Source: Escherichia phage vB_EcoS-95. Taken from it: a stretch of DNA of 50,910 bases. The stretch lies in sequence record NC_048132.1. One strand, 5' to 3'. Below are positions 3,955-31,852 of the stretch, piece by piece; within the stretch, counting starts at the first letter, position 1, and each line of letters starts with the position of its first letter. A program made the position numbers and the translations under genes. The notes below the pieces were generated by a model. The model was given only the letters and a program-made list of their open reading frames with translations, was not told where the DNA came from and did not search any database.

Positions 3955-4373
3955 TGGCTATAACTGATAAAGGAGATTATCTTGAGTTTTACGAAAGAGA
4001 TCCAACCGACACGAGAAAGGAAGTTAATCACCAGATAGATAGCTTTCAGTGGTTGACTTATGCTCATCCTTATTTGCTAGCGTGGCATACGGTAAACGAG
4101 AATGAGAAGTCGAAAGTAACGGCGATGATTGATCAGCAGTCCGGCTTGGTTAAGGGGGTAAGCGATTTCATCATCCTGATTGGTTCAAACGGAAAATACC
4201 CCTTTGCAGCGATTGAGATCAAACGAGTTAATAAATCAGGCAAGGGGAAAGCATCACCAGTCAGCGATGAACAAAAGGCTTTTTTGCGTCGCGTTCGCAG
4301 TTTAGGAGGATTCGCTGCGGTCGCCTACGGATTTAATCAGTTTAAGTTAGCTATTGAATACATGCTTAAATAG
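3954..4373 (+). CDS. VRR-NUC domain nuclease
   Basis: GVSDFIILIG...AIEIKRVNKSGKG...QKAFL pattern typical of VRR-NUC (PD-(D/E)XK) nucleases; start overlaps helicase stop. Confidence 0.55.
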   Translation: MAITDKGDYLEFYERDPTDTRKEVNHQIDSFQWLTYAHPYLLAWHTVNENEKSKVTAMIDQQSGLVKGVSDFIILIGSNGKYPFAAIEIKRVNKSGKGKASPVSDEQKAFLRRVRSLGGFAAVAYGFNQFKLAIEYMLK

Positions 4374-4413
4374 CACTTTTTGTTAAAACTGGCGCGATGG
4401 ATTGCGCCATAAT
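4371..4413 (+). promoter_or_regulatory. Box promoter (box 4371-4389 overlapping stop TAG; hairpin GGCGCGATGGATTGCGCC; -10-like CATAAT 4408-4413)
   Basis: Exact 19-mer TAGCACTTTTTGTTAAAAC; fixed 18-bp gap to -10-like hexamer. Confidence 0.6.
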
Positions 4414-10817: not shown

Positions 10818-10860
10818 ATTTTAACGGCCCAATACTACCCCGTTTTGTCAAAAAGTGCTA
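10818..10860 (-). promoter_or_regulatory. Box promoter variant (TAGCACTTTTTGACAAAAC) upstream of SF3 helicase
   Basis: Box overlaps stop TAG of the upstream gene; hairpin GGGCCGTTAAAATTTACGGCCC; -10-like TAAAAT. Confidence 0.5.
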
Positions 10861-11079
10861 TTTGATCCGCTCTATTGCAACCAGAAGTCGATCAGGCTGG
10901 CGGTCGCTGTAGCATTCTCCTGTAATCCCATCCTTAAACGCAAAGTAAAGCGCCTTATGATATGAAAAACCAATCAGCCAACCTACCGCCGTTTTTTTGA
11001 TGGGCCTGACTATATCGCCAGGCTTGAAAGTCTTTGTGGTAGAATGCGTTACTTTGTAACGGTTTTCACTGTTTATCAC
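10858..11079 (-). CDS. Hypothetical protein
   Basis: 73-aa ORF. Confidence 0.35.
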   Translation of the reverse strand: MINSENRYKVTHSTTKTFKPGDIVRPIKKTAVGWLIGFSYHKALYFAFKDGITGECYSDRQPDRLLVAIERIK

Positions 11080-11462
11080 AGATATTTGCCCTCAAACAGA
11101 TAACAGCCGCCAGCAGAGAATCCGACCTCTTCACGGTACAGGTTCCAGCGGTCGCCGCACTCATCAAAAACATAACCAGCAACGCTTCCAAGCGGTCGCC
11201 CTTTCTCGATCTGGTATCGCTTTCCCTGCTTAAAGTGCTTTTTGCACGGCATGTTATGATCTACAAACGTGCAAAGAACGGTTTTTGTGTTAATGGCGCG
11301 GTAATCATCTCGGTTTGCTGGAAGCCAGCGGCTACCCTTAACAAGCGTCTTAACCTGGAACTCTTCCACCTCGATCACATCATCACTTCCTGCAATCTTC
11401 TGATAAACCGTTTTAAAACGGCCTTTCATCAATACGTTGGTTTCATTACAGATAACATTCAT
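11076..11462 (-). CDS. Hypothetical protein
   Basis: 128-aa ORF with RBS AAGGAG. Confidence 0.4.
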   Translation of the reverse strand: MNVICNETNVLMKGRFKTVYQKIAGSDDVIEVEEFQVKTLVKGSRWLPANRDDYRAINTKTVLCTFVDHNMPCKKHFKQGKRYQIEKGRPLGSVAGYVFDECGDRWNLYREEVGFSAGGCYLFEGKYL

Positions 11463-11491: not shown

Positions 11492-11534
11492 ATTATGCCA
11501 GGTTTTTACACCTGGCTTTTAACAAAAAGTGCTA
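11492..11534 (-). promoter_or_regulatory. Box promoter (minus; hairpin GCCAGGTGTAAAAACCTGGC; CATAAT; leader CACATCGAACAAAC)
   Basis: Box overlaps stop TAG of the methyltransferase-like gene. Confidence 0.55.
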
Positions 11535-12242
11535 TTTTGAGTTTGACTCAAAGACGGCGCGAGCAAATCCGCGCGGAGTGAGTGAGCGGATCATCTTTGT
11601 GCGCGATGACTTACCGCCAGTTTTGGCCCAGCCTGGATTATCTTTGTCTTCCTCTTTCGGCAGGATTAAAGCGCGCGGAGGAATAACAAAGCCGTTGCCA
11701 GTCCAGAGGCACGTTTTCTTAAAATAGCGATCCCGCGCCGGAATAATATCAGGGAAGTCGGGATGTTTATCATCTTCCGGCAGATAGCCAGCGTAATCGC
11801 ACGGATGGAACGTATAATCAGGCTTTCGCCATAACGTTGACAACTTGCCAACCGGATTTTCGATCATGTAAGGAACACCGAAATAATCAGCTATATCAGC
11901 CGCGATTCTGCAAGTGTCGGCGGCCTCATCCTGGAACGATGGATTCTCAAGGCGTTTTTTGGCCCAATGGCGAGATCCGCTATTTGCAAGGTCGGTGCAC
12001 GGCGGAAATGCCATAATAAAGTCAGGAATGCCCCATTCCTCCCAGCGCGCGCGGTGGTAAAATCTTTCATCAATCCAGACGTTAACGTATTCGATATTCT
12101 CATGCTGTATGCGCACTGACTGGTAATCACCGTGATCGCCACCGTCAGCATTAAAGCAAATGCACTTATAGCCATTATCAGCCCAATCTTTAACGGCTTT
12201 ACCAGATCCATCAAATAGTGAGAATATTAAACCTTTATACAT
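11532..12242 (-). CDS. Compact DNA C5-cytosine methyltransferase-like protein (atypical PCT catalytic motif)
   Basis: Motif I LFDGSG, motif IV FPPCTDLANSGS (PCT instead of PCQ), motif VI ENPVG, C-terminal RSLTPRGFARAVF (motif X-like); about 236 aa with no obvious target-recognition domain. Confidence 0.45.
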   Translation of the reverse strand: MYKGLIFSLFDGSGKAVKDWADNGYKCICFNADGGDHGDYQSVRIQHENIEYVNVWIDERFYHRARWEEWGIPDFIMAFPPCTDLANSGSRHWAKKRLENPSFQDEAADTCRIAADIADYFGVPYMIENPVGKLSTLWRKPDYTFHPCDYAGYLPEDDKHPDFPDIIPARDRYFKKTCLWTGNGFVIPPRALILPKEEDKDNPGWAKTGGKSSRTKMIRSLTPRGFARAVFESNSK

Positions 12243-12968: not shown

Positions 12969-13181
12969 TCATTTCTTATTTTTCAGCTTAAATTTATGAC
13001 CTGGAACACCAGCGCCAATATAGCCATCGTTGTATTCCATCAAATAAAGGTGAAGACCATTATCTGAAATTACATGAGGATCTTCTTTGAGATTTCCCAT
13101 TAGTGGATATTCTTTTCCGCGCGTAAATCTCCAAGTTGAGTTATAAGTTTCTACGCATTTAAGTTTTAATTGCTTTGCCAT
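12969..13181 (-). CDS. Hypothetical protein
   Basis: 70-aa ORF. Confidence 0.35.
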   Translation of the reverse strand: MAKQLKLKCVETYNSTWRFTRGKEYPLMGNLKEDPHVISDNGLHLYLMEYNDGYIGAGVPGHKFKLKNKK

Positions 13182-13462: not shown

Positions 13463-13659
13463 TAAATGATCTCCATGTATGTTTCAAAGCCATTTAACTT
13501 GAACAGGCCGTTTTCACATTTGCGCACGTTCCAAGTTAGACCTGAGTGGTACGCCTCCATATCATCAAGGTCAATGGTGATTTCAGCGCCTTTCTTAAAC
13601 AAACCTTTTTCGTGAGACTTGTCGCGCTTAACAACTTTAACATCAACCTGATTTTCCAT
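13462..13659 (-). CDS. Hypothetical protein
   Basis: Trimmed to MENQVDVKV (RBS GAGGAT) from track 13462-13710. Confidence 0.4.
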   Translation of the reverse strand: MENQVDVKVVKRDKSHEKGLFKKGAEITIDLDDMEAYHSGLTWNVRKCENGLFKLNGFETYMEII

Positions 13660-13690
13660 CTTTAAATCCTCGCTTGTTGTCGATGGGTGT

Positions 13691-13733
13691 AATATACCAT
13701 TCAGGCGCACATCGTTTTTAACAAAAAGTGCTA
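13691..13733 (-). promoter_or_regulatory. Box promoter (minus; -10-like TATATT; leader CATCGACAACAA)
   Basis: Box overlaps stop TAG of upstream gene; fixed spacing to hexamer. Confidence 0.55.
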
Positions 13734-14021
13734 TTCAACAACTTTTCCAGTTAAAGAGATAAGTTGCCTTGTAATCTTGTGGCGGCGATACTTACGCGCA
13801 ACAACAGGAAGGCTTTCACCGCTTTGATGACCAAAACAGATCGGCAATTCACCTTCAAGGGAGCGGAAGCCACCAAATTCAAGATCCCGCACTGGCTTAG
13901 CGCGCCAGGCTTCAATAAATCCGCGCTCGTCACGAGTGATATAGCGGTATATGTTCGGGAGGGGCAATTGTATCCCCTCAAAATCCACGGTATCGGTATA
14001 GCTATAAAACTTAGAACTCAT
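13731..14021 (-). CDS. Hypothetical protein
   Basis: Trimmed to MSSKFYSY (RBS GGAG) from track 13731-14072. Confidence 0.4.
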   Translation of the reverse strand: MSSKFYSYTDTVDFEGIQLPLPNIYRYITRDERGFIEAWRAKPVRDLEFGGFRSLEGELPICFGHQSGESLPVVARKYRRHKITRQLISLTGKVVE

Positions 14022-14163
14022 AGTCAACAACTCCAAACTCATTGACGATTTGCGCCTTATAGAAGCCACCATTTTTCGCCAGGTTGTAACAAGCGGCTAC
14101 GGTTTCAAATTCGCGCGATTCCGGCTGGCTGTTTTCGTGTTCCCAGGTAATCAGAGTAACCAT
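14011..14163 (-). CDS. Small hypothetical protein (50 aa), not in ORF track
   Basis: ATG preceded by GCGAGGA; MVTLITWEHENSQPESREFETVAACYNLAKNGGFYKAQIVNEFGVVDYEF; overlaps next start. Confidence 0.35.
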   Translation of the reverse strand: MVTLITWEHENSQPESREFETVAACYNLAKNGGFYKAQIVNEFGVVDYEF

Positions 14164-14196
14164 TTTCAAATCCTCGCATTCGTTGTCGATGCGTGT

Positions 14197-14239
14197 AATG
14201 TACAGGAATGCGAGGATTGAGTTTTAACAAAAAGTGCCA
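14197..14239 (-). promoter_or_regulatory. Box promoter (minus; variant TGGCAC; -10-like TACATT; leader CATCGACAACGAA inside a 12-bp inverted repeat that includes the RBS)
   Basis: ATCCTCGCATTC ... GAATGCGAGGAT inverted repeat spans hexamer, leader and RBS. Confidence 0.55.
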
Positions 14240-14240
14240 T

Positions 14241-14504
14241 TTAGTCCAGGAATTCGATTTCACGCTCTCCAGTTAACGGATCCACAAGCCAGAATCCGAG
14301 CGGTTCGCCGTGAACACCTTCATAGAATCCAAGCGCCGCCAGATCTTCACCTTTAACAAATACCAGGTTTCCGCTACGGCTTACGTGAGACACGTTAACG
14401 ATAACCGGAAATGTGCGATCCTTAAATGCAGGCCGCAGGGCGTAACATCCGTTGTTTAGCAAACGTGCTTTGCGCTTAACTGGAATAGGTGCATTAATTT
14501 TCAT
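14241..14504 (-). CDS. Hypothetical protein
   Basis: 87-aa ORF. Confidence 0.4.
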   Translation of the reverse strand: MKINAPIPVKRKARLLNNGCYALRPAFKDRTFPVIVNVSHVSRSGNLVFVKGEDLAALGFYEGVHGEPLGFWLVDPLTGEREIEFLD

Positions 14505-14516
14505 GGTTATTACTCC

Positions 14517-14729
14517 TTATCGTAAAGATTTAAAGACGTATAGTTTACTGCGGTAACTATATATCCGCATTGTTATTTCTCGCAGTGCAATATATTCCTT
14601 CCTGTTTTCCGGCAGACTGGCGAGCAATAGCAGGCAGTATTTATAAGCGCGGTCAAGATTCCTTTCCGTGCCCCTGCAATATCCCTTGTTGCGCCTGGAG
14701 CGGTACAGCCATAACAATTTCTTGAACAT
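14517..14729 (-). CDS. Hypothetical protein
   Basis: Trimmed to internal ATG (MFKKLLW) that follows upstream stop. Confidence 0.3.
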   Translation of the reverse strand: MFKKLLWLYRSRRNKGYCRGTERNLDRAYKYCLLLLASLPENRKEYIALREITMRIYSYRSKLYVFKSLR

Positions 14730-14730
14730 T

Positions 14731-14940
14731 TCAGATACGCCCATACAGATCACAGACTTCGTTGATAAAATTGCTTTTCGCCCCTTTGTTGTCACGCTCA
14801 AGAATTGCGCGGCATTCAAACTTATGATTATGCACGATGACTACAACCATGTTTTCAGGCATTGAGCGGTTATAGCGTTGCGCATCACTGATTGAAACAT
14901 CCATACCCATCTCATGTGCTTTCTTGATCACATCCAACAT
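14731..14940 (-). CDS. Hypothetical protein, paralog of 14928-15194
   Basis: MLDVIKK start with RBS AGGAG; shares GxxSNFINEVC motif with upstream neighbour. Confidence 0.4.
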   Translation of the reverse strand: MLDVIKKAHEMGMDVSISDAQRYNRSMPENMVVVIVHNHKFECRAILERDNKGAKSNFINEVCDLYGRI

Positions 14941-15194
14941 TTTTTCTTCTCCTGCAATAAGCAAACATCATTGATAAAATCAGCACGGCCCTTAATGTTG
15001 CTGATGTGGAACGTCTTTTCAGCGTACAGGCCATCACCTTCAATCACGATCATTACGCGAGTCGGTTTATTCACGGGCGCACACGAAAAGAGTGGGCGCA
15101 CCGGAAGAAATTTAGTCATCACATCCAGGTTGGCCCTGGCGGCCCTGCAAAACGCCTCCGCCAGATCCAAATCATTTTCGGTAATCACCGCCAT
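14928..15194 (-). CDS. Hypothetical protein, paralog of 14731-14940
   Basis: RBS GAGGAG; GRADFINDVC motif shared with downstream neighbour. Confidence 0.4.
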   Translation of the reverse strand: MAVITENDLDLAEAFCRAARANLDVMTKFLPVRPLFSCAPVNKPTRVMIVIEGDGLYAEKTFHISNIKGRADFINDVCLLQEKKKCWM

Positions 15195-15466
15195 TACTTC
15201 TTGATCTCCTCACTGATAAATTTCAGCACCTGACGCAAGAAAACCTCGTTGTTGATAGTCGCTGGCAATTCTTCTTTCACTTCTTGCGGCAGATAGATAT
15301 TGCCGTGCCAGGTCAAGCAATCGTAGTTGATACGATAAGAGCAAAGCCACTCGCAATCGTTATCTGCTTCCCAAATGCAGAGTTGCAGAACATCGCCAAA
15401 ATCTTCAACAGTCAGATCCAGACCGTGACGCTTGGCGAAATTGAAAGTGGTTTTGCTGATGTTCAT
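15194..15466 (-). CDS. Hypothetical protein (first gene of the leftward block)
   Basis: 90-aa ORF with RBS AGGAG. Confidence 0.45.
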   Translation of the reverse strand: MNISKTTFNFAKRHGLDLTVEDFGDVLQLCIWEADNDCEWLCSYRINYDCLTWHGNIYLPQEVKEELPATINNEVFLRQVLKFISEEIKK

Positions 15467-15500
15467 TGCTATCTCCTGAGCGGTTCGTTTCGATGTGTGT

Positions 15501-15543
15501 AATGTACCCGATCAGACGGCCTGAGTTTTAACAAAAAGTGCTA
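15501..15543 (-). promoter_or_regulatory. Box promoter (minus; -10-like TACATT; leader CATCGAAACGAA)
   Basis: Exact reverse-complement box at 15525-15543. Confidence 0.55.
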
Positions 15544-15544
15544 T

Positions 15545-16099
15545 TTGACGGTTAGCGCCAGGATTGCGATCGAAATAATCAAAAGTAATCATTCGTAATC
15601 AAATCACGTCAAAATGATGATTGCCTTTGCAAATTTGATGAGAAAAGCAATCACGTTTAATCATTGGTTGCAGGGGAGATAGTGAAACCCTCCCCTCTCG
15701 CCTCACTTTTCCGCCTGGCTGTCAGTGGTTGTTGTCTTTTGTTCACCCCTGTTACCGATTTCAGGCGGCGTGTTTCCGCGCGGTTTTCCGGTGTAGCGAA
15801 AACGGAAAAAACAAAGAAAATCCTCTATAATACATTGAAAATAAAGATTATTTATTTATATATATCTATAATGTTTTCTTTTTGTTCTCACTGTTACAGT
15901 GCTTTTTGTTGGTTATGGTGTGGTTGTGTGTGGGCATATATGGATAGTTGCGCGCGCGGCGGATTGCATATGTATATATACTTTTTCCGGCGGATTGCGT
16001 TAACAGCGTGAACAGAAAAATAACAGCCGCGAAATCAATAACTTGCGCATGATTTTGTAGTTTTTCGATATTGGTAACGTTTTGAATACAACAAAAACA
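15545..16099. promoter_or_regulatory. AT-rich non-coding strand-switch region with AATCA-type short repeats, inverted repeats and a duplicated GGCGGATTGC element; candidate origin and control region
   Basis: No convincing ORF; TAATCA repeats 15570-15660; GGCGGATTGC twice about 32 bp apart flanking ATATGTATATATAC; T/G-rich tract TTATTTATTTAT...GTTGGTTATGGTGTGG. Confidence 0.4.
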
Positions 16100-16127
16100 T
16101 TGACACGCACCAAATAGCTTTTATAAT
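16100..16127 (+). promoter_or_regulatory. Near-consensus sigma70 promoter (TTGACA-16 bp-TATAAT) for rightward early transcription
   Basis: TTGACA at 16100-16105 and TATAAT at 16122-16127. Confidence 0.6.
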
Positions 16128-16158
16128 GCGCAAACAGTCAACAACTGGAGGAAAGGAA

Positions 16159-16623
16159 ATGGAACAGAAAACCACTAAGGACTATTGCGATTGGCTTCGC
16201 GAGCTTGGTCGCCGCCTGGCTAGTGGCGATATTGAAGAGTATAAAATGTCACTAATTGACCTGGCCGGAATGTTAAGCGGTGATGACTGCTACAAGATCA
16301 CGCGCAGTTCATCCTACAGCCGGACCATTATCAACCGCGTTCCAGAAGTAAGGGCCGCAGGTCGGGTAAGCATCAAGGTAGAGGAAACGGAAGATGATAA
16401 ATTTTACGTTTTCCGCATGGTCCGCGAATCGAAAAGGAAAATCATCACACCCGAAGAATTGCCAGCCATCAAGGCAAGGGCGATCAAAAAGTTTGCCGAT
16501 CGCTTACTGGCAGCAATCCCGAACATCGTGGACATGGAAGGGGATAAACTGGCTGGAGCTTGTGAGGGCGTAAGCCGCTACCAGGATATGATCCGCGAAA
16601 TCATCAAAGAGGAGGAGCAATAA
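16159..16623 (+). CDS. Hypothetical early protein (first gene downstream of the consensus promoter)
   Basis: Start at MEQKTTKDY with RBS GGAGG; 154 aa. Confidence 0.5.
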   Translation: MEQKTTKDYCDWLRELGRRLASGDIEEYKMSLIDLAGMLSGDDCYKITRSSSYSRTIINRVPEVRAAGRVSIKVEETEDDKFYVFRMVRESKRKIITPEELPAIKARAIKKFADRLLAAIPNIVDMEGDKLAGACEGVSRYQDMIREIIKEEEQ

Positions 16624-16883
16624 TGAAAAAGGCATTAATCGGCGTTTTGGCGGCAATGACACTCCTGACCGGATGCGAAAAGGCATCAGAATCAACGGTT
16701 GTCGTAGGCGTTGAGTCAGATTTCAAAGTCGGCCGCCTGTTCACTGTTGACGGATGCACAGCATACAGATTCTATGATAACGGTCGCGCGATCTATTACA
16801 CCAGTTGCAAAGGCGCAACGGATAGCACATACAACAGCGGAAAGAACGTAATGCACCAGCAAGTCACAACAGATATTAAATAG
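16623..16883 (+). CDS. Putative lipoprotein
   Basis: Signal peptide with lipobox LLTGC; 86 aa. Confidence 0.5.
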   Translation: MKKALIGVLAAMTLLTGCEKASESTVVVGVESDFKVGRLFTVDGCTAYRFYDNGRAIYYTSCKGATDSTYNSGKNVMHQQVTTDIK

Positions 16884-16923
16884 CACTTTTTGTTAAAACG
16901 CCAGGCGCAAAGCCTGGCATAAT
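16881..16923 (+). promoter_or_regulatory. Box promoter (hairpin GCCAGGCGCAAAGCCTGGC; CATAAT; leader CATCGAAACGAG)
   Basis: Exact box overlapping stop TAG. Confidence 0.6.
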
Positions 16924-16955
16924 AGCCTCATCGAAACGAGATTGAGTAAACAAAA

Positions 16956-17141
16956 ATGGCACGTCGCATCACCAAAGACCTTAAAGTCCTGAACAAAGAA
17001 AACGTAGTTAAAATCCTGGTTATCTGGGGCTACAACGAAGAAACAGCAAAGCAGAAGGTAGAGGCGGGTTATGACCTGGCTGTAAAAGCAATGCCAAACG
17101 ACGACGCCAAAGGCATTGCAAACTATGTAGCTTTCTTTTAA
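16956..17141 (+). CDS. Hypothetical protein
   Basis: 61-aa ORF. Confidence 0.4.
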   Translation: MARRITKDLKVLNKENVVKILVIWGYNEETAKQKVEAGYDLAVKAMPNDDAKGIANYVAFF

Positions 17142-17156
17142 TTAGCAGGTGAATAA

Positions 17157-17342
17157 ATGAAAACGAAATTAGTCCATAAATCAGAAATCAAGATCGGCGA
17201 TACTGTGATTCACAACGGAGAGCTTAGAACGGTTGGCAAAGAGTCAATAAGCCACGATGAATTTATGGGGATCTTGTTGTTCGGCGACTCTTATCGTCTT
17301 GGTTACAAGATGGTTGAGCTTGTGGAAGAAGTGAAATTCTAA
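17157..17342 (+). CDS. Hypothetical protein
   Basis: 61-aa ORF. Confidence 0.4.
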   Translation: MKTKLVHKSEIKIGDTVIHNGELRTVGKESISHDEFMGILLFGDSYRLGYKMVELVEEVKF

Positions 17343-17343
17343 A

Positions 17344-17386
17344 TAGCACTTTTTGTTAAAACTCAAAAACGATAACCAGGCATAAT
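17344..17386 (+). promoter_or_regulatory. Box promoter (CATAAT at 17381-17386)
   Basis: Exact box one base after stop TAA. Confidence 0.6.
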
Positions 17387-17441
17387 AAATCACATAGGGC
17401 GGCACGGCGTCGCCCAGTTAAACCAATCAGGAGAAAGCACC

Positions 17442-18335
17442 ATGTTAAAACTTGCTGACATTAAATTCCCGATCACCTTCGAATCTCGCGGCATTGGTCA
17501 TTACATTTTTACCGATGAAAAAACATGCCATAAGGTTGATATGAATAGCGACAAACTAAGCCCATCAACAATGGAGATTGAACACTTTATTGATGCACAC
17601 AATACGCACTACAACGCCCTTAAAGACTATGGCTATGCAATGCCAGGCTACACATGTTTGCACTACAAGCCATATAAGGGCCAGGTGTTACCAGTTCGCT
17701 CACCGGAACGCGCAGAGATTCCGATGGTCAATATGAAAACCTGCGACTACAAAAAGCTGTGGTGCTTAAGTGTGGATAATATCAAGTATCCGATCACGTT
17801 CCACACGACTGGTAAGTCAACGATTCGCTACACATCGCGCGACAATGGCGTTTATAGCGATGGTACGAAATCAGAGTTGAAAGTTGATTTCTTTGTCAAC
17901 GGTCACAACAAATTCAATCCGCACAACGAAGAGGATAAAGTGTACTACGTGGAAGACATTACAAAACACTTGTTTGGAGAAACTCCATTCGGCGGCGGAA
18001 AGACGTCAATTCAAAAAATCATTGGCGAGGAGATCCACAAAGCGGTCGCCGAAATGAAAGCGCCTGGAGGCTGGCGTATTGATAAGAGCGCCTTTGCAAA
18101 TCAAGAAATCGTAACGCAGGGCGCGATTGAAGATATGCCAGTTGCAGCCACGCTAAAAGGAGTCAGGCTTGATGACGGCACCTGGTATGAATTAACGGCT
18201 ACACCAAAGACGATCGAAATTCATGATGATGTTGTTATTCTCCTACTCCACTACGGCGGCACTAAAAACCGGACTGTTGCGGGTGAGATCAGCATCAAGC
18301 GCGGAACGATGGTTAAGTGGAAGGTGAAGATTTGA
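17442..18335 (+). CDS. Hypothetical protein with internal tandem duplication
   Basis: DIKFPITFESRGIGHYIFTDEK repeated as NIKYPITFHTTGKSTIRYTSRD; 297 aa. Confidence 0.5.
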   Translation: MLKLADIKFPITFESRGIGHYIFTDEKTCHKVDMNSDKLSPSTMEIEHFIDAHNTHYNALKDYGYAMPGYTCLHYKPYKGQVLPVRSPERAEIPMVNMKTCDYKKLWCLSVDNIKYPITFHTTGKSTIRYTSRDNGVYSDGTKSELKVDFFVNGHNKFNPHNEEDKVYYVEDITKHLFGETPFGGGKTSIQKIIGEEIHKAVAEMKAPGGWRIDKSAFANQEIVTQGAIEDMPVAATLKGVRLDDGTWYELTATPKTIEIHDDVVILLLHYGGTKNRTVAGEISIKRGTMVKWKVKI

Positions 18336-18561
18336 GTTTGCTCACTGCGGCGCACGTCGCCGCATGGATCGGATTGTTTGCCTACCTGTTTAGCTTTTAT
18401 TGAGGTGAGAGATGACTACCTGGATTTTGCTGATTCTTATGATTGATGGCGGCGTTGACCATATCGAAATGAATAGCCAGCAATCTTGCATTGAGGCACG
18501 AGAGCAGATCAAGAACAACAACAGGTTTTATGTGTACACTCACACGCTATGTATTAAGAAA

Positions 18562-18603
18562 TAGCACTTTTTGTTAAAACTCAAATTTGGGGCCAGGTAT
18601 AAT
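18562..18603 (+). promoter_or_regulatory. Box promoter (hairpin GGGGCCAGG..GGCCC with TATAAT)
   Basis: Exact box overlapping stop of a small upstream ORF. Confidence 0.55.
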
Positions 18604-18633
18604 GGCCCTGCTTTCAACGAAGGAGATAAAACG

Positions 18634-18852
18634 ATGTACATTAAAAAGAAGATGAAATGCATTTCCGTTAACTATGCTTGCTCTGGCATGTTCAAGCCTG
18701 GCGAAATCTATACGGCGCAAAAACTGAAATCATCAACCGGATCTTTTTACGTGAGCAATAGTAAGGGGCATCGCATGTTCCTGAACGGCGGCGAAGGCAC
18801 TAAGGTTATGGCACACGCTATGGTAATGGCTGAATTTGAGGAGGTGAAATAA
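18634..18852 (+). CDS. Hypothetical protein, paralog of 18852-19097
   Basis: Start at MYIKKK (RBS AAGGAG); shared C-terminal motif FLNGGEGT...AEFEEV. Confidence 0.45.
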   Translation: MYIKKKMKCISVNYACSGMFKPGEIYTAQKLKSSTGSFYVSNSKGHRMFLNGGEGTKVMAHAMVMAEFEEVK

Positions 18853-19097
18853 TGATCATTGAAAACAACTTTCTTTGCGTTAAGAGCAATCGACCATTCT
18901 TCACGCCTGGCAAGGTGTACCAGGGCAAGAAGGACACAAGAGATGGTCACTCTTATCATGTTCACTGCAACAACGGATACAAGTTTTACCTTAACGGCGA
19001 GAATGGAACTGAGATCGTTGCGTTTGAAAACGTAGTTGCCGAGTTTGAGCAGGTTACAGACGCGGAATTTGAGGAAGTGAAAGATGAAAACAAATAA
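18852..19097 (+). CDS. Hypothetical protein, paralog of 18634-18852
   Basis: YLNGENGTEIVAFENVVAEFEQV; start overlaps upstream stop (ATGA). Confidence 0.45.
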   Translation: MIIENNFLCVKSNRPFFTPGKVYQGKKDTRDGHSYHVHCNNGYKFYLNGENGTEIVAFENVVAEFEQVTDAEFEEVKDENK

Positions 19098-19305
19098 GCG
19101 CGTCAAGTACAGGTTTACTGATAACCACGGCGACGCGATTGATGTATACAAGTTCGGCGATCGCGTGTTTATTGATGGCACGTTTGAAGGTGGGCGTAGG
19201 CCGGATTTTAGGTCGATACTTACCGTTGACCAAGTGCGCAAGCTGGCAGATAAGTTAAATGATCTGGCAGATGAAATAGAATACAAGCAAATACATTTTA
19301 ATTGA
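19084..19305 (+). CDS. Hypothetical protein
   Basis: 73-aa ORF. Confidence 0.35.
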   Translation: MKTNKRVKYRFTDNHGDAIDVYKFGDRVFIDGTFEGGRRPDFRSILTVDQVRKLADKLNDLADEIEYKQIHFN

Positions 19306-19316
19306 TAGGTTTGATA

Positions 19317-20027
19317 ATGAAAAAATACACTTTCGAACTGTGGGGCAAGAAGTACGAATTAATCACCAGCAAGCCGATTGTTATCGTTGACCTGGACGGC
19401 ACACTATCGGACGGATCGCATCGTTTGCACTTGCTGCCAACTGAAAACTTGCACCTTACGGAATCTTGGCGCGAGTTTAACAGGTCCGCCGCCGGAGATT
19501 CACCTATTAAAAGCACGATCGCGGTTATTAACGGTTTGTGGGTGTCTGGATTTGCCATCGTCATCTTGACCGGACGCAGCGACGAGGTTCGCTATGAAAC
19601 CTGCAAATGGTTGAATGAGAACGGCGTGAAGTTTGACGAAATCATCATGCGCCGCCAGGAGGACAACCGAAAGGATACGGTTATTAAAGAAGAAGCCTTG
19701 CGCGCTATTGGCCTGGACAACATTGTTTGCGCCTTTGACGATTCGCCGAACGTGGTTAAGCACTTCCGCAGCTTGGGGATCACAACCTATCAGGTCACGG
19801 AATACGACAAGCCACACGCTCACATACAATCTCACGGCGTGGAATCAATCAAGATAACGAAGCGCGCCCGATTCGTTGGCAGCAAAGATAGCCTTGTCAA
19901 TGCCAGCTTTACCAGAGGAATAGCATATGACGTTGTTTCTTATCATGACAAGAGTTTTATAGTTCATGATGATTCTGGATGCGCATGGTCATTCAATCAT
20001 AGTGACGGCGATTTTGTTAATGCGTAA
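19317..20027 (+). CDS. HAD-superfamily phosphatase (nucleotidase or polynucleotide 3'-phosphatase-like)
   Basis: HAD motif I VIVDLDGTLSDG; later FDDSP motif; start at MKKYTFELW. Confidence 0.5.
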   Translation: MKKYTFELWGKKYELITSKPIVIVDLDGTLSDGSHRLHLLPTENLHLTESWREFNRSAAGDSPIKSTIAVINGLWVSGFAIVILTGRSDEVRYETCKWLNENGVKFDEIIMRRQEDNRKDTVIKEEALRAIGLDNIVCAFDDSPNVVKHFRSLGITTYQVTEYDKPHAHIQSHGVESIKITKRARFVGSKDSLVNASFTRGIAYDVVSYHDKSFIVHDDSGCAWSFNHSDGDFVNA

Positions 20028-20070
20028 TAGCACTTTTTGTTAAAACATCTCAACGGGCTTGCGGTATAGT
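20028..20070 (+). promoter_or_regulatory. Box promoter (hairpin GGGCTTGCGGTATAGTAAGCCC; -10-like TATAGT; leader CATCAACAACAAACGAGGA)
   Basis: Exact box directly after stop TAA. Confidence 0.6.
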
Positions 20071-22533: not shown

Positions 22534-22824
22534 ATGGCAAACAAAACTTACCGCAAACTACTGGTTAACGCTTTTGAAAACATCGCGCAGTCTAACAAGT
22601 GGAACGACTCTAAACACTCGCCAGTCACAATGAAGCGCGTCGGATTCAAAAATGCTCGTTCATGGGCGCGAGCTTTCGCAGCTTGCTATATGCCGGATGG
22701 TGGACTAGGAGCGATGAACGATTTTTTGATCAACATGATAGAGGAAGCTGCGCGAGAGGATCGACCGCTGACACAGCGAGATTTTGACGACTTCGCGCGC
22801 GATGAGCTTTACTATCTGAGCTAA
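22534..22824 (+). CDS. Hypothetical protein
   Basis: 96-aa ORF; stop followed by box. Confidence 0.4.
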   Translation: MANKTYRKLLVNAFENIAQSNKWNDSKHSPVTMKRVGFKNARSWARAFAACYMPDGGLGAMNDFLINMIEEAAREDRPLTQRDFDDFARDELYYLS

Positions 22825-22867
22825 TAGCACTTTTTGTTAAAACTTCCGCAAGGGCATTTGATAAAGT
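22825..22867 (+). promoter_or_regulatory. Box promoter (hairpin GGGCATTTGATAAAGTGCCC)
   Basis: Exact box immediately after stop TAA. Confidence 0.55.
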
Positions 22868-30298: not shown

Positions 30299-30778
30299 AT
30301 GGCTAAAATTGGAGCAAGTTATTTTGACACTATGGCGATCGCACTACCTGGCATGGTTGCCGACACTTCTAAATACAACATTGACGGCGCTTGCGTCGTT
30401 AGTGAAGGTGGGGAAATTCTTGTTGGTACTGCCGTGCAGGTTGTCGCAGTGCAAGCGGTTGAAGGTCATAAACTTATTAAGCGCATGGAAGCAGAAAAAT
30501 ATCCTTACGGTGTGGCAATTCGCTCTCACTGGCAAACTGTTAACTCTCAAGGACAGATGGTTTATGAAGAAGGAAGCGCAATCAACGTAATGACATCTGG
30601 AAGAGTTTGGATTCGTTCAAAGTCCAGCGCAGCACCAGTCTTCGGCACTGCCGTTAAACTTGATGTTGATGGTCATGAAAAATCAGACGGCGCAATCACT
30701 ACTAACTGGACATACGCTGGCGGATTTGTCAAATATAAAGATATTAATCTTGTAGAAGTTCAGTTGCAGCAACTGTAA
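30299..30778 (+). CDS. Capsid decoration-like protein (paralog A)
   Basis: Shares N-terminal domain with 30839-31852 (YNIDGACV...GRVW...AGGFVK...EVQ). Confidence 0.4.
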   Translation: MAKIGASYFDTMAIALPGMVADTSKYNIDGACVVSEGGEILVGTAVQVVAVQAVEGHKLIKRMEAEKYPYGVAIRSHWQTVNSQGQMVYEEGSAINVMTSGRVWIRSKSSAAPVFGTAVKLDVDGHEKSDGAITTNWTYAGGFVKYKDINLVEVQLQQL

Positions 30779-30838: not shown

Positions 30839-31852
30839 ATGGCTTATGAAAATTTAATGATGCACTATGCATGTCCTGGCAATCTCTCTGATACTTCAAC
30901 ATATAACATTGATGGCGCTTGTGTTGCTCAAGGTGATATTAAGTTTGGATCAGCGGTTCGGGTTGTCGGAATAGTGGATGGAATGAGGGTTGTGACGGCG
31001 CTTTCTGATGGTGAAACTCCTTACGGCATCGCTTTTCGTTCCCAATATGAGCACCTGAGCGGTAAAATTCTCGACGGAGAGGTGTGTAACGTCGTTTCTC
31101 ACGGTCGGGTGTGGGCGCTTACTTCTCTTAGTGAAGCCCCGAAATCATTCTCAAAACTAAGAATCGGTGTTGGAGGAGTAGTAACTGGCGTAGATGATTA
31201 TGTTGGTTGGACCTTTGCTGGTGGCTTTGTTAAGCACGAAGACGGTCACATTATTGAGGTTCAGGTGAAGCAAAATGCTCTAATCGTTCCACCCCCTCCG
31301 CCTCCTGTGGTGCTGGTAGAGTCTGCAACAATTAACACTGACAAGGAGAGTCCGCAGCCAAACAATGCTCCTGTAAAATGCAGTATCACAGTAGAGCCTG
31401 GCAACGCCACCGATAAAACTGGTGTTTGGTCTGTTGATGCTGTAAACATTGCGACTATTGATGCCGATACAGGTATTCTAACTCCTGTTGGTAGTGATGC
31501 ATTCGGTAGTGTAAACGTAAATTGGACTGCTAACGATGGAAGCAAGACTAAGGCCACGATTGTTTATCAATTCGAAAAAGCTGTTGTTAGCGTCGCTAGT
31601 GCAACCGTAAGCCTTGAGAAAAATTCTGCAATTGTTGGTGAAGCCGTTCAGGCGAGCGTTGTCGTTGCTCCAGAAGGTGCTACAAATAAATCCGGTTCTT
31701 GGTCTTTGTCAAGTGGTGATTTTGCATCTGTAGATCCTGGTACTGGACTAGTAACTACTATCGCCGCTGGCGAGGTTGATGTTATCTGGACCGCTGCTGA
31801 TGGTTCTGGCGTTAAAGGTCAGCAAAGACTAACCATCACCGATCCTGAATAA
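30839..31852 (+). CDS. Capsid decoration-like protein (paralog B) with Pro linker and two Ig-like (Big_2-type) domains
   Basis: N-terminal paralogy to 30299-30778; PPPPPPVV linker; two repeats of Ig-like pattern (ATID..TG.LT..G.......V.WTA.DGS). Confidence 0.45.
   Translation: MAYENLMMHYACPGNLSDTSTYNIDGACVAQGDIKFGSAVRVVGIVDGMRVVTALSDGETPYGIAFRSQYEHLSGKILDGEVCNVVSHGRVWALTSLSEAPKSFSKLRIGVGGVVTGVDDYVGWTFAGGFVKHEDGHIIEVQVKQNALIVPPPPPPVVLVESATINTDKESPQPNNAPVKCSITVEPGNATDKTGVWSVDAVNIATIDADTGILTPVGSDAFGSVNVNWTANDGSKTKATIVYQFEKAVVSVASATVSLEKNSAIVGEAVQASVVVAPEGATNKSGSWSLSSGDFASVDPGTGLVTTIAAGEVDVIWTAADGSGVKGQQRLTITDPE

What the first reader, a model, noticed from the sequence alone, without database searches (positions are those of the whole stretch)
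14731..19097. Local gene duplications among small early genes
Three cases of recent duplication are visible: adjacent paralogs 14928-15194 and 14731-14940 (shared ...FINDVC/FINEVC motif), adjacent paralogs 18634-18852 and 18852-19097 (shared ...NGxxGTxxxAxxxVxAEFExV), and an internal tandem duplication in 17442-18335. Duplication and divergence of small early genes is a common route to host-takeover or anti-defence functions.
Basis: seen in the sequence. Interest (0 to 1): 0.4.

Follow-up and report, generated by a model that had tools for sequence, protein, structure and literature searches.

The report
Old small-gene paralogs, T1-like phage
In this T1-like coliphage, three sets of small accessory genes really are related by duplication, but the copies are ancient, their number differs between sister phages through recombination at short repeats, and their function is unknown, which is an ordinary feature of phage accessory regions.

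Summary
The window is a near-complete Warwickvirus genome (Drexlerviridae, T1-like). Two of the three claimed duplications are solid.

- **B1/B2 (18634-18852, 18852-19097):** BLASTP E=3e-14, shuffle z=20.
- **C (17442-18335):** a profile built from single-domain relatives hits it twice, at residues 1-68 (E=9e-12) and 109-295 (E=4e-45).
- **A1/A2:** marginal on its own (E=0.003). A third variant, A3, sits in the same slot in Hanrivervirus and links both (hhalign E~2e-5 each). Two of three leave-one-out profile tests agree.

None of the duplications is recent. Amino-acid identity is 22-35% and third-codon identity 28-37%, about random.

- A third B paralog at 12969-13181(-).
- B2 is bounded by an 18-bp direct repeat and is precisely absent from most relatives.
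- A1 is precisely absent from one relative.
- The N-domain of C occurs 1, 2 or 3 times among homologues.
- A 2.7-kb block (C to Pnk) is missing in phage mar001J1, with the junction inside a known 21-bp promoter-like repeat.

All three families are confined to Drexlerviridae. None has a Pfam, PDB-sequence or significant PDB-fold match. B2 models as a small six-strand beta-barrel. Function is untested. A neighbouring small barrel protein is the homologue of Gp54(Bas11), the known CapRel trigger.

The parts
18634..18852 (+). B1: 72-aa member of the B family (phrog_9122/10169). It is the copy present in almost all Tempevirinae.
   Evidence: BLASTP against B2 gives E=3e-14. tblastn finds a B-family match to the B1 query in 99 phage records, of which 83 carry a B1-type copy at >=80% identity. 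PHROG hits.
18852..19097 (+). B2: 81-aa paralog of B1. It is an accessory copy, present at >=80% identity in 28 of the 96 records that match it.
   Evidence: The AlphaFold2 model has pLDDT 90: six beta strands plus a C-terminal acidic helix.
18832..18849 (+). Left copy of the 18-bp direct repeat GAATTTGAGGAGGTGAAA (encodes EFEEVK). It forms the 3' end of B1.
   Evidence: Phages with B1 only have a single copy exactly at this point.
19065..19082 (+). Right copy of the 18-bp repeat (GAATTTGAGGAAGTGAAA, 17/18 identical) near the 3' end of B2. The pair brackets the B2 insertion/deletion.
12969..13181 (-). g70: 70-aa third paralog of the B family, on the leftward arm.
   Evidence: hhalign of the B family against the g70 family: 94.9% probability, E=4.5e-8, 48 columns. 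It shares phrog_10169/3523 hits with B1/B2.
11076..11462 (-). g128 (phrog_2684): its C-terminal half may hold a distant B-like domain. Weak evidence.
   Evidence: hhalign 40% probability over 23 columns. A 127-aa NBD2 protein of similar length matches the B2 model in BFVD with E=3e-4, TM 0.66; that it is the g128 orthologue was not checked. An iterated HMM picks it up, with a risk of profile drift.
17442..18335 (+). C: 297-aa protein (phrog_7116) built as N-domain copy 1, linker, N-domain copy 2, linker, C-terminal beta domain.
17442..17645 (+). C N-domain copy 1 (residues 1-68).
   Evidence: HMM of short homologues, E=9.4e-12. The model shows beta-beta-beta-beta-alpha.
17766..17972 (+). C N-domain copy 2 (residues 109-177). 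It begins the part of C that is collinear with the single-domain homologues.
   Evidence: HMM positions 2-180 match residues 109-295, E=4e-45. Same secondary-structure pattern as copy 1.
14928..15194 (-). A1: 88-aa protein, probable ortholog of the Hanrivervirus A3 protein. It is 93-99% conserved across the 62 records that hold it at full length; a 63rd record (EC167) retains only residues 1-24.
14731..14940 (-). A2: 69-aa probable paralog of A1/A3. Its alleles are strongly diverged (68-99% identity).
15192..15211 (-). Junction motif GAGGAGATCAAGAAGTAATG: the end of the 90-aa gene, the ribosome-binding site and the A1 start.
   Evidence: Locus L005 joins this motif directly to the A2 start, so A1 is absent there.
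14938..14954 (-). Similar junction motif CAGGAGAAGAAAAAATG: the end of A1, the ribosome-binding site and the A2 start.
17341..17365 (+). Promoter-like direct repeat AAATAGCACTTTTTGTTAAAACTCA upstream of C. It is the left end of the 2.7-kb block missing in mar001J1.
18559..18583 (+). The same repeat upstream of B1, followed by TATAAT at 18598-18603. In Henu8 it is retained in front of B2.
20027..20046 (+). The same repeat core after Pnk. It is the right end of the block missing in mar001J1.
15522..15546 (-). The same repeat heading the leftward operon (90-aa gene, then A1, then A2).

Best explanation
The region is the accessory-gene part of a T1-like (Warwickvirus) genome. It is organised as short gene cassettes that run outward from a divergent control region, each headed by a copy of a conserved promoter-like repeat.

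Three protein families here have grown by old local duplication:
- The B family has three copies in this genome: B1, B2 and g70. They are small six-strand beta-barrels with an acidic AEFExV tail.
- The A family has two copies, A1 and A2. Hanrivervirus has a single A3 in the same slot.
- The N-terminal domain of protein C occurs 1, 2 or 3 times in different relatives.

The copies diverged to 22-35% identity long ago. Today's differences in copy number between near-identical phages arise by recombination at short repeats at cassette edges:
- an 18-bp EFEEVK-coding repeat brackets B2;
- similar ribosome-binding-site/start junctions bracket A1;
- the 21-bp promoter repeat brackets a 2.7-kb block.

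Shown: homology, copy-number polymorphism and the exact junctions.

Inferred: the genes are expressed from the repeat-associated promoters. Each copy is individually dispensable. The products act as small single-domain binders of host or host-defence proteins, with paralogs giving alternative specificities.
For: Identity of the genome.

Homology:
- B1/B2.
- g70.
- C N-domain copies: with matching secondary structure in the model.
- A family through A3. Reciprocal weak hits were the only sub-0.1 hits among 11,216 ORFs.

Age: third-codon identity 28-37%. The two-copy form of C is found in both Warwickvirus and Hanrivervirus; other subfamilies have one copy.

Polymorphism and junctions:
- B2 is absent in JLBYU26 and pSf-1, with exactly one 18-bp repeat left. 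Henu8 has B2 only, fused to the B1 promoter and ribosome-binding site.
- Counts: B2-type in 28 of 96 records, and 23-24 records with both copies.
- A1 is absent in L005.
- P0098 has three N-domains.
- The mar001J1 junction lies inside the promoter repeat.

Real genes: dN/dS is 0.1-0.5, there are ribosome-binding sites and -10 boxes, and the genes are annotated in dozens of records.

Restricted families: 54, 36 and 310 clusters among 5.8 billion proteins, essentially all on ~50-kb contigs. C has 43 representatives among 1.84 billion.

Context: the neighbouring small barrel protein Gp54(Bas11) is non-essential, has its own promoter and binds a host immunity protein.
Against: - A1/A2 homology rests on a bridge. 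One of the three leave-one-out tests failed: the A2+A3 profile finds A1 only at E~2.
- The direction of each event (loss or gain) was not resolved by a phylogeny.
- The near-identity of the 18-bp repeat (17/18) contrasts with saturated divergence of the gene bodies. B2 may therefore have been re-inserted laterally rather than retained since the duplication.
- There are no expression, essentiality or interaction data for any A, B or C protein.
- The 'small binder' function is inferred from size, fold and neighbourhood only. Fold searches gave no significant PDB match.
Confidence: 0.7

Rival explanations
1. B2 is not an in-situ duplicate of B1. It is a diverged homologue brought in from another Drexlerviridae phage and inserted next to the resident copy by recombination at the short shared EFEEVK-coding sequence.
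For: The 18-bp flanks are 17/18 identical while the gene bodies are saturated. B2 occurs alone in Henu8 and Jahat, in the slot and behind the promoter used elsewhere by B1. B2 alleles are 80-99% identical across two genera.
Against: In a neighbour-joining tree the B1 and B2 clades are sisters relative to the T1-type and 63-aa-type family members. This fits a duplication inside Tempevirinae. The B2-only state is simply derived from the tandem by a deletion between the two similar start regions. The two scenarios are not exclusive: an old duplication could be followed by lateral exchange.
Confidence: 0.3
2. The A1/A2 resemblance is chance or convergence between two unrelated small proteins, so only two of the three claimed duplications are real.
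For: Pairwise E=0.003 for a single comparison, and 17/2000 shuffles reach the score. hhalign A1-A2 gives 16% probability. The A2+A3 profile does not retrieve A1 significantly. All profiles have very low diversity (Neff about 1).
Against: A3 occupies exactly the same slot and matches A1 over 69 columns and A2 over 58 columns, at E~2e-5 each. The A1+A3 profile retrieves all seven A2 alleles as its next-best hits (E 0.002-0.018; next unrelated hit at E=1). The A1+A2 profile retrieves all A3 (E 4e-4 to 4e-3; next at 2.9). Four columns beyond the start methionine are invariant, in the FINxxC motif.
Confidence: 0.17
3. The paralogs are anti-defence proteins, or decoys for host immune sensors. Duplication and allelic diversification are driven by an arms race with bacterial immunity.
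For: Accessory status and presence/absence polymorphism. A2 alleles are far more diverged than the flanking genes (dS up to 0.9 against 0.02-0.24). The neighbouring small barrel protein Gp54(Bas11) is sensed by CapRel-SJ46, and its authors suggest it might inhibit another defence system.
Against: No A, B or C protein has been tested. dN/dS is 0.1-0.5, so there is no overall positive selection. By profile comparison none of the families is related to Gp54. No structural or sequence match to any known anti-defence protein was seen in the Pfam, PHROG or PDB searches.
Confidence: 0.2
4. Some of these ORFs are not functional genes: chance ORFs or decaying remnants.
For: They are small, have no Pfam domain, and A1 and A2 have no PHROG family. 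Some relatives carry truncated copies, such as the Fulano1 B1 with a 13-bp deletion.
Against: The reading frames are conserved across dozens of genomes. dN/dS is below 1. The genes have ribosome-binding sites and translationally coupled starts. The B2 model is confident.
Confidence: 0.03

Closest known systems
Gp54 of phage Bas11 / Gp19 of SECphi27 (PDB 9axb, 9erv; Zhang et al., Nature 2024, PMC11578894)
   Same: A small (about 66 aa), non-essential accessory protein of the same phage group, encoded on the same leftward arm; the Bas11 gene has its own promoter. The crystal structure is a six-strand beta-barrel with a long beta1-beta2 loop. The B2 model likewise has six strands and a long first loop. 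Its homologue lies in this window at 13517-13710(-).
   Different: No detectable sequence relation to the B, A or C families (hhalign probability 5% or less). Gp54 did not appear among the 50 PDB Foldseek hits listed for B2, out of 143 with E up to 10. The B family has a conserved AEFExV C-terminal strand and an acidic helix. No interaction with CapRel or any other protein has been tested for B.
PHROG families phrog_9122 / phrog_10169 (B) and phrog_7116 (C)
   Same: B1 and B2 both match phrog_9122 and phrog_10169. C matches the whole 173-position phrog_7116 profile with residues 108-296, plus a second stretch.
   Different: These families carry no functional annotation. The window's C has an extra N-domain copy relative to the family profile. 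A1 and A2 match no PHROG.
The 21-nt direct repeat aaATAGCACnnnTTGnTAAAA of phage TLS (German, Kropinski et al. 2024, PMC11447400)
   Same: The same sequence occurs at least 9 times in this window, co-oriented with the genes and in intergenic gaps.
   Different: The TLS paper left its role open (stoperator, enhancer or UP element). Here each copy is followed 18-19 nt later by a -10-like hexamer, and a 2.7-kb cassette deletion has its junction inside the repeat.
Modular (mosaic) evolution of phage accessory genes at short boundary sequences, and paralogous small-ORF families in phage early regions (general knowledge: lambdoid-phage module boundaries, morons, T4/T5 small early ORFs)
   Same: Cassette-wise presence/absence between close relatives, with junctions at short conserved sequences at gene boundaries. 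The families are diverged small paralogs of unknown function.
   Different: This comparison rests on my own knowledge, not on a test run here. The specific families and junction sequences are particular to Drexlerviridae.

Membership tests
Tandem gene duplicates (paralogs) | Statistically significant sequence similarity between the copies | tested here: met
   B1/B2 E=3e-14, z=20. C N1/N2 HMM E=9e-12 and hhalign E=2.5e-20.
Tandem gene duplicates (paralogs) | Significant similarity for the A1/A2 pair | tested here: inconclusive
   Direct comparison gives E=0.003 and 16% hhalign probability. Through A3, E~2e-5 for each link. Two of three leave-one-out profiles are positive.
Tandem gene duplicates (paralogs) | Adjacent, same strand, same transcription unit | tested here: met
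   The A1 stop overlaps the A2 start (14928-14940). The B1 stop overlaps the B2 start (TAATG at 18850-18854)..
Recent duplication | High nucleotide identity with unsaturated synonymous sites | tested here: not met
   Nucleotide identity is 41-51% and third-position identity 28-37%.
phrog_9122 / phrog_10169 (B family) | Profile match of both copies | tested here: met
   B1 E=9.8e-5 and 1.5e-3; B2 E=2.9e-10 and 5.3e-4.
phrog_7116 (C family) | Full-length profile match | tested here: met
   E=1.6e-77; residues 108-296 cover profile positions 1-173, plus a second stretch.
Gp54(Bas11) family (CapRel trigger) | Sequence or profile similarity to Gp54 | tested here: not met
   B, g70, g128, A and the C domains against the g64/Gp54 family give hhalign probability of 5% or less. 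Only the ORF at 13517-13710 matches 9axb (E=4e-17).
Gp54(Bas11) family (CapRel trigger) | Same six-strand barrel topology by structural superposition | not testable with these tools
   Coordinates could not be superposed here. 9axb is not among the 50 listed Foldseek hits, and the rest of the list was not shown.
SH3-like small beta-barrels | Significant structural match to SH3, Tudor or chromo barrels | tested here: inconclusive
   B2: best PDB E=1.2, with SH3-like domains (Pif1, PsaE, Sho1) among the weak hits. C: best E=0.28, to chromo/Tudor/NdhS barrels.
Early (sigma-70 driven) phage genes | A host-type promoter directly upstream | tested here: met
   A 12/12 consensus at 16100-16127 and a 10/12 match at 18574-18603. 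The overall count of promoter-like sites is not above the shuffle expectation, but the repeat plus -10 architecture is non-random (0 expected, 8 found).
Early (sigma-70 driven) phage genes | Transcription early in infection | not testable with these tools
   No transcriptome of a Tempevirinae phage was found.
Anti-defence proteins | Similarity to a known anti-defence family, or experimental inhibition of a defence system | not tested
   No anti-defence library was available. The Pfam, PHROG and PDB searches gave no such match.

The most novel reading that the evidence does not exclude
The B-family barrels (B1, B2, g70, perhaps g128) and the A-family proteins could be, like Gp54(Bas11), ligands of host immunity proteins. 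They would act as inhibitors of some defence systems and as triggers of others. Under this reading the phage lineage keeps diverged paralogs, and swaps them at short repeats, so that one copy can escape a sensor while another keeps the function. That would be a cassette-based immune-evasion repertoire in T1-like phages.
Probability: 0.12. Interest if true: 0.6.

Novelty: new member of a known kind. Interest (0 to 1): 0.27.

Why it matters
The finding is a worked example of how accessory regions of T1-like phages are built and remodelled. It documents old paralog families, a domain whose copy number varies, and exact recombination junctions at an 18-bp coding repeat, at ribosome-binding-site/start junctions, and at a family-wide 21-bp promoter-like repeat.

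These phages (SECphi27, the BASEL Bas phages) are used as models for bacterial immunity. Knowing that B1, B2 and g70 are one family, and that A1, A2 and A3 are probably another, tells experimenters which genes may be redundant. Single-gene knock-outs or escape screens could miss them for that reason.

It does not reveal a new kind of system.

Tried and rejected
- **Pnk C-terminal extension (residues 185-241) as a further B paralog.** It looked similar by eye and shares phrog_14592 with a B-like protein. hhalign gives only 4.6% probability, so I rejected it.
- **The conserved 'leader' upstream of B1 (MLKLKCGARYNGL...) as a remnant B-domain.** Rejected: it is the promoter-like repeat, a -10 box and a ribosome-binding site.
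- **B or C domains related to Gp54(Bas11).** Not supported.
- **Known-family and structure searches.** Pfam has no family for A, B or C. The PDB sequence search with the B profile found nothing below E=0.1. Foldseek against PDB found nothing significant for B2 or C. BFVD returned only uncharacterised siphophage proteins.
- **P0240 and P0243 (7-8 'repeats' matching the C N-domain).** These are unrelated repetitive sequences and were ignored.
- **P0244 as a fusion of the C N-domain with a B-like domain.** Only an 18-residue match, so it was given no weight.
- **Positive selection on A2.** dN/dS is 0.1-0.5, so there is no support.
- **Iterated wide HMM for the B superfamily.** It drifts, so only the hhalign-supported links were kept.
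- **Literature.** No expression timing or function was found for these genes.
- **Locus L009 (2019SD1).** It shows exact repeats and frameshifts in C. This looks like a poor-quality sequence, and it was not used.

Full report
**What the window is.** Bases 14000-20000 match 268 phage records. The best matches are 95-98% identical over 88-99% of the query, and all of them are Escherichia phages of the genus Warwickvirus (Drexlerviridae, Tempevirinae; T1-like). Examples are JLBYU26, tonijn, swan01 and SECphi27. At 50.9 kb the window is about one genome length. I use these labels:
- A1 = 14928-15194(-)
- A2 = 14731-14940(-)
- B1 = 18634-18852(+)
- B2 = 18852-19097(+)
- C = 17442-18335(+)

**Claim 2, B1/B2: confirmed.** BLASTP gives 48.5 bits, E=3e-14, 24/71 identical. 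The Smith-Waterman score is 115 against 23.4+/-4.5 for 2000 shuffles, z=20. Both proteins hit phrog_9122 and phrog_10169. The pair is not recent: aligned codons are 51% identical and third positions 37%.

A profile of the family finds only 54 clusters among 5.8 billion proteins, mostly on ~50-kb contigs. These fall into four subtypes: B1-type, B2-type, a 65-aa T1-type and a 63-aa type. In a neighbour-joining tree B1 and B2 are sister clades.

The AlphaFold2 model of B2 (36-sequence alignment) has mean pLDDT 90. It shows six strands (2-12, 22-28, 36-38, 44-46, 54-57, 60-68) and a C-terminal helix at 70-80. Foldseek finds no PDB match better than E=1.2, and the weak hits include SH3-like barrels. 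In BFVD it matches only uncharacterised proteins of T1-like and other siphophages.

**A third B paralog.** Profile-profile comparison of the B family with the family of the 70-aa ORF at 12969-13181(-) gives 94.9% probability, E=4.5e-8, over 48 columns. That ORF also shares phrog_10169 and phrog_3523 with B1/B2. Two more genes, 11076-11462(-) and 10858-11079(-), reach only about 40% probability over 23-27 columns. One BFVD structural hit to a 127-aa NBD2 protein (E=3e-4) is consistent with a B-like domain in the first of these, though I did not check that it is the g128 orthologue. I treat both as possible only. The C-terminal extension of Pnk is not supported (4.6%).

**How B copy number changes.** A DNA alignment of seven phages shows three states.
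- Phages with B1 only (JLBYU26, pSf-1) read ...GGTAATGGCT GAATTTGAGGAGGTGAAA GATGAAAACAAATAA.
- The window, swan01, L004 and Fulano1 have the same 18 bases twice, at 18832-18849 and 19065-19082, 17/18 identical. The B1 stop, the B2 start (TAATG) and the whole B2 body lie between the two copies. B2 is therefore an exact insertion/deletion bounded by an 18-bp direct repeat that encodes EFEEVK. This also explains why B2 ends AEFEQVTD-AEFEEVKDENK, with the family motif written twice.
- In Henu8, B1 is missing and B2 follows the B1 promoter and ribosome-binding site directly.

Across GenBank phages, B2-type genes at 80% identity or more are in 28 of the 96 records that match B2. Both copies are present in 23-24 records. 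B1-type alone is present in most records, and B2 alone in a few. Copies are therefore lost, gained or exchanged between close relatives, although the paralogs themselves are old. I could not decide whether the near-identical 18-bp flanks reflect a recent lateral re-insertion of B2 or conservation.

**Claim 3, internal duplication in C: confirmed and refined.** The direct comparison of residues 2-54 with 109-156 is modest (E=1e-4, z=6.3, 0/2000 shuffles). The stronger test uses other Drexlerviridae subfamilies, which carry a 171-188-aa homologue with one N-domain. An HMM built from eight of these hits C twice: residues 1-68 (HMM 1-67, E=9.4e-12) and residues 109-295 (HMM 2-180, E=4e-45). Profile-profile comparison of N1 with N2 gives 99.3%, E=2.5e-20. 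phrog_7116 behaves the same way.

The AlphaFold2 model (28 sequences, mean pLDDT 73) has three confident modules separated by low-confidence linkers at 85-106 and 178-222. The two N-modules share a beta-beta-beta(-beta)-alpha pattern: strands 11-15, 19-23, 29-32 and 39-42 with helix 46-60, against strands 118-121, 127-130 and 136-138 with helix 148-158. The third module is a beta-rich C-domain at 223-297.

The two-copy form is shared by Warwickvirus and Hanrivervirus. One metagenomic relative, P0098 (374 aa), has three N-domains, and two distant relatives, P0235 and P0236, also have two. The family is small: 43 representatives among 1.84 billion proteins. The model has no significant PDB match; the best is E=0.28, to chromo/Tudor/SH3-like barrels.

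**Claim 1, A1/A2: probably real, not proven.** The pair alone is marginal: 19.2 bits, E=0.003, 14/64 identical; z=3.9, with 17/2000 shuffles as good. In the phage collection A1 (63 records, 93-99% identical) and A2 (62 records, 68-99%) occur only in Warwickvirus and do not cross-hit.

Hanrivervirus and some metagenomic relatives carry, in exactly the same slot, a single 81-aa gene that I call A3 (MISEVDFELAEAQVRAKRMGL...AKFINESCDV). The slot lies between the conserved 90-aa gene and the 87-aa gene. The evidence that A3 links A1 and A2 is as follows.
- Among 11,216 ORFs from 89 loci, the only sub-0.1 hits of A1 and A2 besides themselves are A3 proteins, and the reverse also holds.
- hhalign gives A1-A3 77% (E=2.1e-5, 69 columns), A2-A3 80% (E=1.5e-5, 58 columns) and A1-A2 16%.
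- In leave-one-out tests, the A1+A3 profile retrieves all A2 alleles next (E=0.002-0.018, then a gap to E=1). The A1+A2 profile retrieves all A3 (E=4e-4 to 4e-3, then 2.9). The A2+A3 profile does not retrieve A1 significantly (E about 2).
- A joint profile finds only 36 clusters in 5.8 billion proteins, all of the three subtypes.

At the DNA level the 5' part of A1 still aligns with A3, so A1 looks like the A3 ortholog and A2 like the extra copy. One relative, L005, lacks A1 precisely. The junction lies where the end of the 90-aa gene (GAGGAGATCAAGAA..ATG) resembles the end of A1 (CAGGAGAAGAAAAAATG).

A2 alleles are much more diverged than their neighbours: dS up to 0.9, against 0.04-0.2 for A1 and 0.02-0.24 for the 90-aa gene. 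They are under purifying selection, with dN/dS 0.1-0.5. This points to old, exchanged alleles rather than to positive selection.

**Regulatory context.** A perfect sigma-70 consensus (TTGACA-16-TATAAT) lies at 16100-16127(+), at the head of the rightward genes. The sequence AAATAGCACTTTTTGTTAAAAC(TCA) occurs eight times with at most 3 mismatches, where 0 are expected by chance. There is one further copy at 20027-20046. Every copy is co-oriented with the local genes and is followed 18-19 nt later by CATAAT, TATAAT or TACATT. Copies head C (17341), B1 (18559) and the leftward operon that contains A1 and A2 (15546).

This repeat is already described for phage TLS, with its function left open (PMC11447400). 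It is found in 69 of the 88 fetched Drexlerviridae loci. In phage mar001J1 the 2.7 kb from just after the repeat upstream of C to the repeat after Pnk is missing, and the junction lies inside the repeat. The missing block holds C, a 50-aa gene, B1, B2, a 73-aa gene and Pnk.

**Function.** None of the A, B or C proteins has a Pfam family, a PDB sequence relative or a significant PDB fold match. The literature search found nothing on their expression or role.

The nearest experimental anchor is the 65-aa ORF at 13517-13710(-). It is the homologue of Gp54 of Bas11 (PDB 9axb/9erv; E=4e-17). Gp54 is a non-essential six-strand barrel protein with its own promoter. It binds and activates the CapRel-SJ46 immunity protein, and its authors suggest it may inhibit another defence system (PMC11578894). 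The B family has a similar size and strand count, but by profile comparison it is not related. I could not superpose the structures.

My working model is that A, B and C are individually dispensable small binders of host or defence proteins. That is an inference from size, fold, polymorphism and neighbourhood, not a result.

**Verdict.** The biology is ordinary for phage accessory regions. The added value is the exact anatomy: a third B paralog, the bridging A3, the variable number of N-domains in C, and three kinds of short-repeat junction that explain differences in copy number between sister phages.

Noticed in passing
window 13517-13710 (-): A 65-aa ORF that is the homologue of Gp54 of phage Bas11 (PDB 9axb/9erv, E=4e-17). 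Gp54 is the small six-strand beta-barrel protein that directly activates the CapRel-SJ46 defence protein (Zhang et al., Nature 2024). Residues D6, G24 and W43 are conserved. Position 7 is V and position 25 is A. In the paper, the single substitutions A7V and I25V each largely abolished activation by Gp54(Bas11), so this copy may not be a trigger.
   Followed up: partly
window 4368-4392, 11513-11537(-), 14218-14242(-), 15522-15546(-), 16878-16902, 17341-17365, 18559-18583, 20027-20046, 22822-22846: A promoter-like direct repeat, AAATAGCACTTTTTGTTAAAAC. Every copy is co-oriented with the downstream gene and is followed 18-19 nt later by a -10-like hexamer. It is the same element as the 21-nt repeat reported in phage TLS with unresolved function, and it is present in 69 of the 88 fetched Drexlerviridae loci. 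The invariant 20 bases go well beyond what a sigma-70 -35 box needs, which suggests a bound factor.
   Followed up: partly
window about 17363-20046, compared with L085 (mar001J1) 4010-4120: Phage mar001J1 lacks the whole block of C, the 50-aa gene, B1, B2, the 73-aa gene and Pnk. The deletion junction lies inside the promoter-like repeat, so the repeat also serves as a recombination site for cassette loss or gain.
   Followed up: yes
window 30299-30778 and 30839-31852 (+): Adjacent paralogs in the tail module: 38% identity over 147 aa, E=6e-26, both phrog_1989. The second copy carries additional Ig-like domains and matches major-tail-protein and Ig-domain PHROGs.
   Followed up: partly
window 19302-20027 (+), residues 185-241: The polynucleotide kinase/phosphatase has a 57-aa C-terminal extension. 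Only 4 of the 80 related IMG/VR loci match it over its full length. It weakly matches phrog_14592 and is not demonstrably related to the B family.
   Followed up: partly
window 16100-16127 (+): A perfect sigma-70 consensus promoter (TTGACA, 16 nt, TATAAT; 12/12) at the start of the rightward gene set. It faces the leftward operon across a gene-free region of about 650 bp (15467-16125).
   Followed up: no
window 14731-14940 (-) compared with relatives L001, L005 and L082-L085: A2 alleles differ by dS up to 0.9, while the flanking A1 and 90-aa genes differ by 0.24 or less. The variation is concentrated in two patches (residues 15-27 and 46-58) that occur in different combinations, as if the alleles were mosaics.
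   Followed up: partly
window 14517-14753 (-): A 78-aa ORF (MFKKLLWLYRSRRNKGY...) is present in the window, swan01 and L005 but absent from BEBK14 and from the phages that carry A3. It is another presence/absence cassette and has no PHROG family.
   Followed up: no
L009 (Shigella phage 2019SD1) 5248-6699: The C homologue there appears as a fragment plus a 380-aa ORF with two near-identical copies of residues 106-252, and neighbouring genes are frameshifted. This may be a very recent duplication or a sequencing/assembly problem.
   Followed up: no
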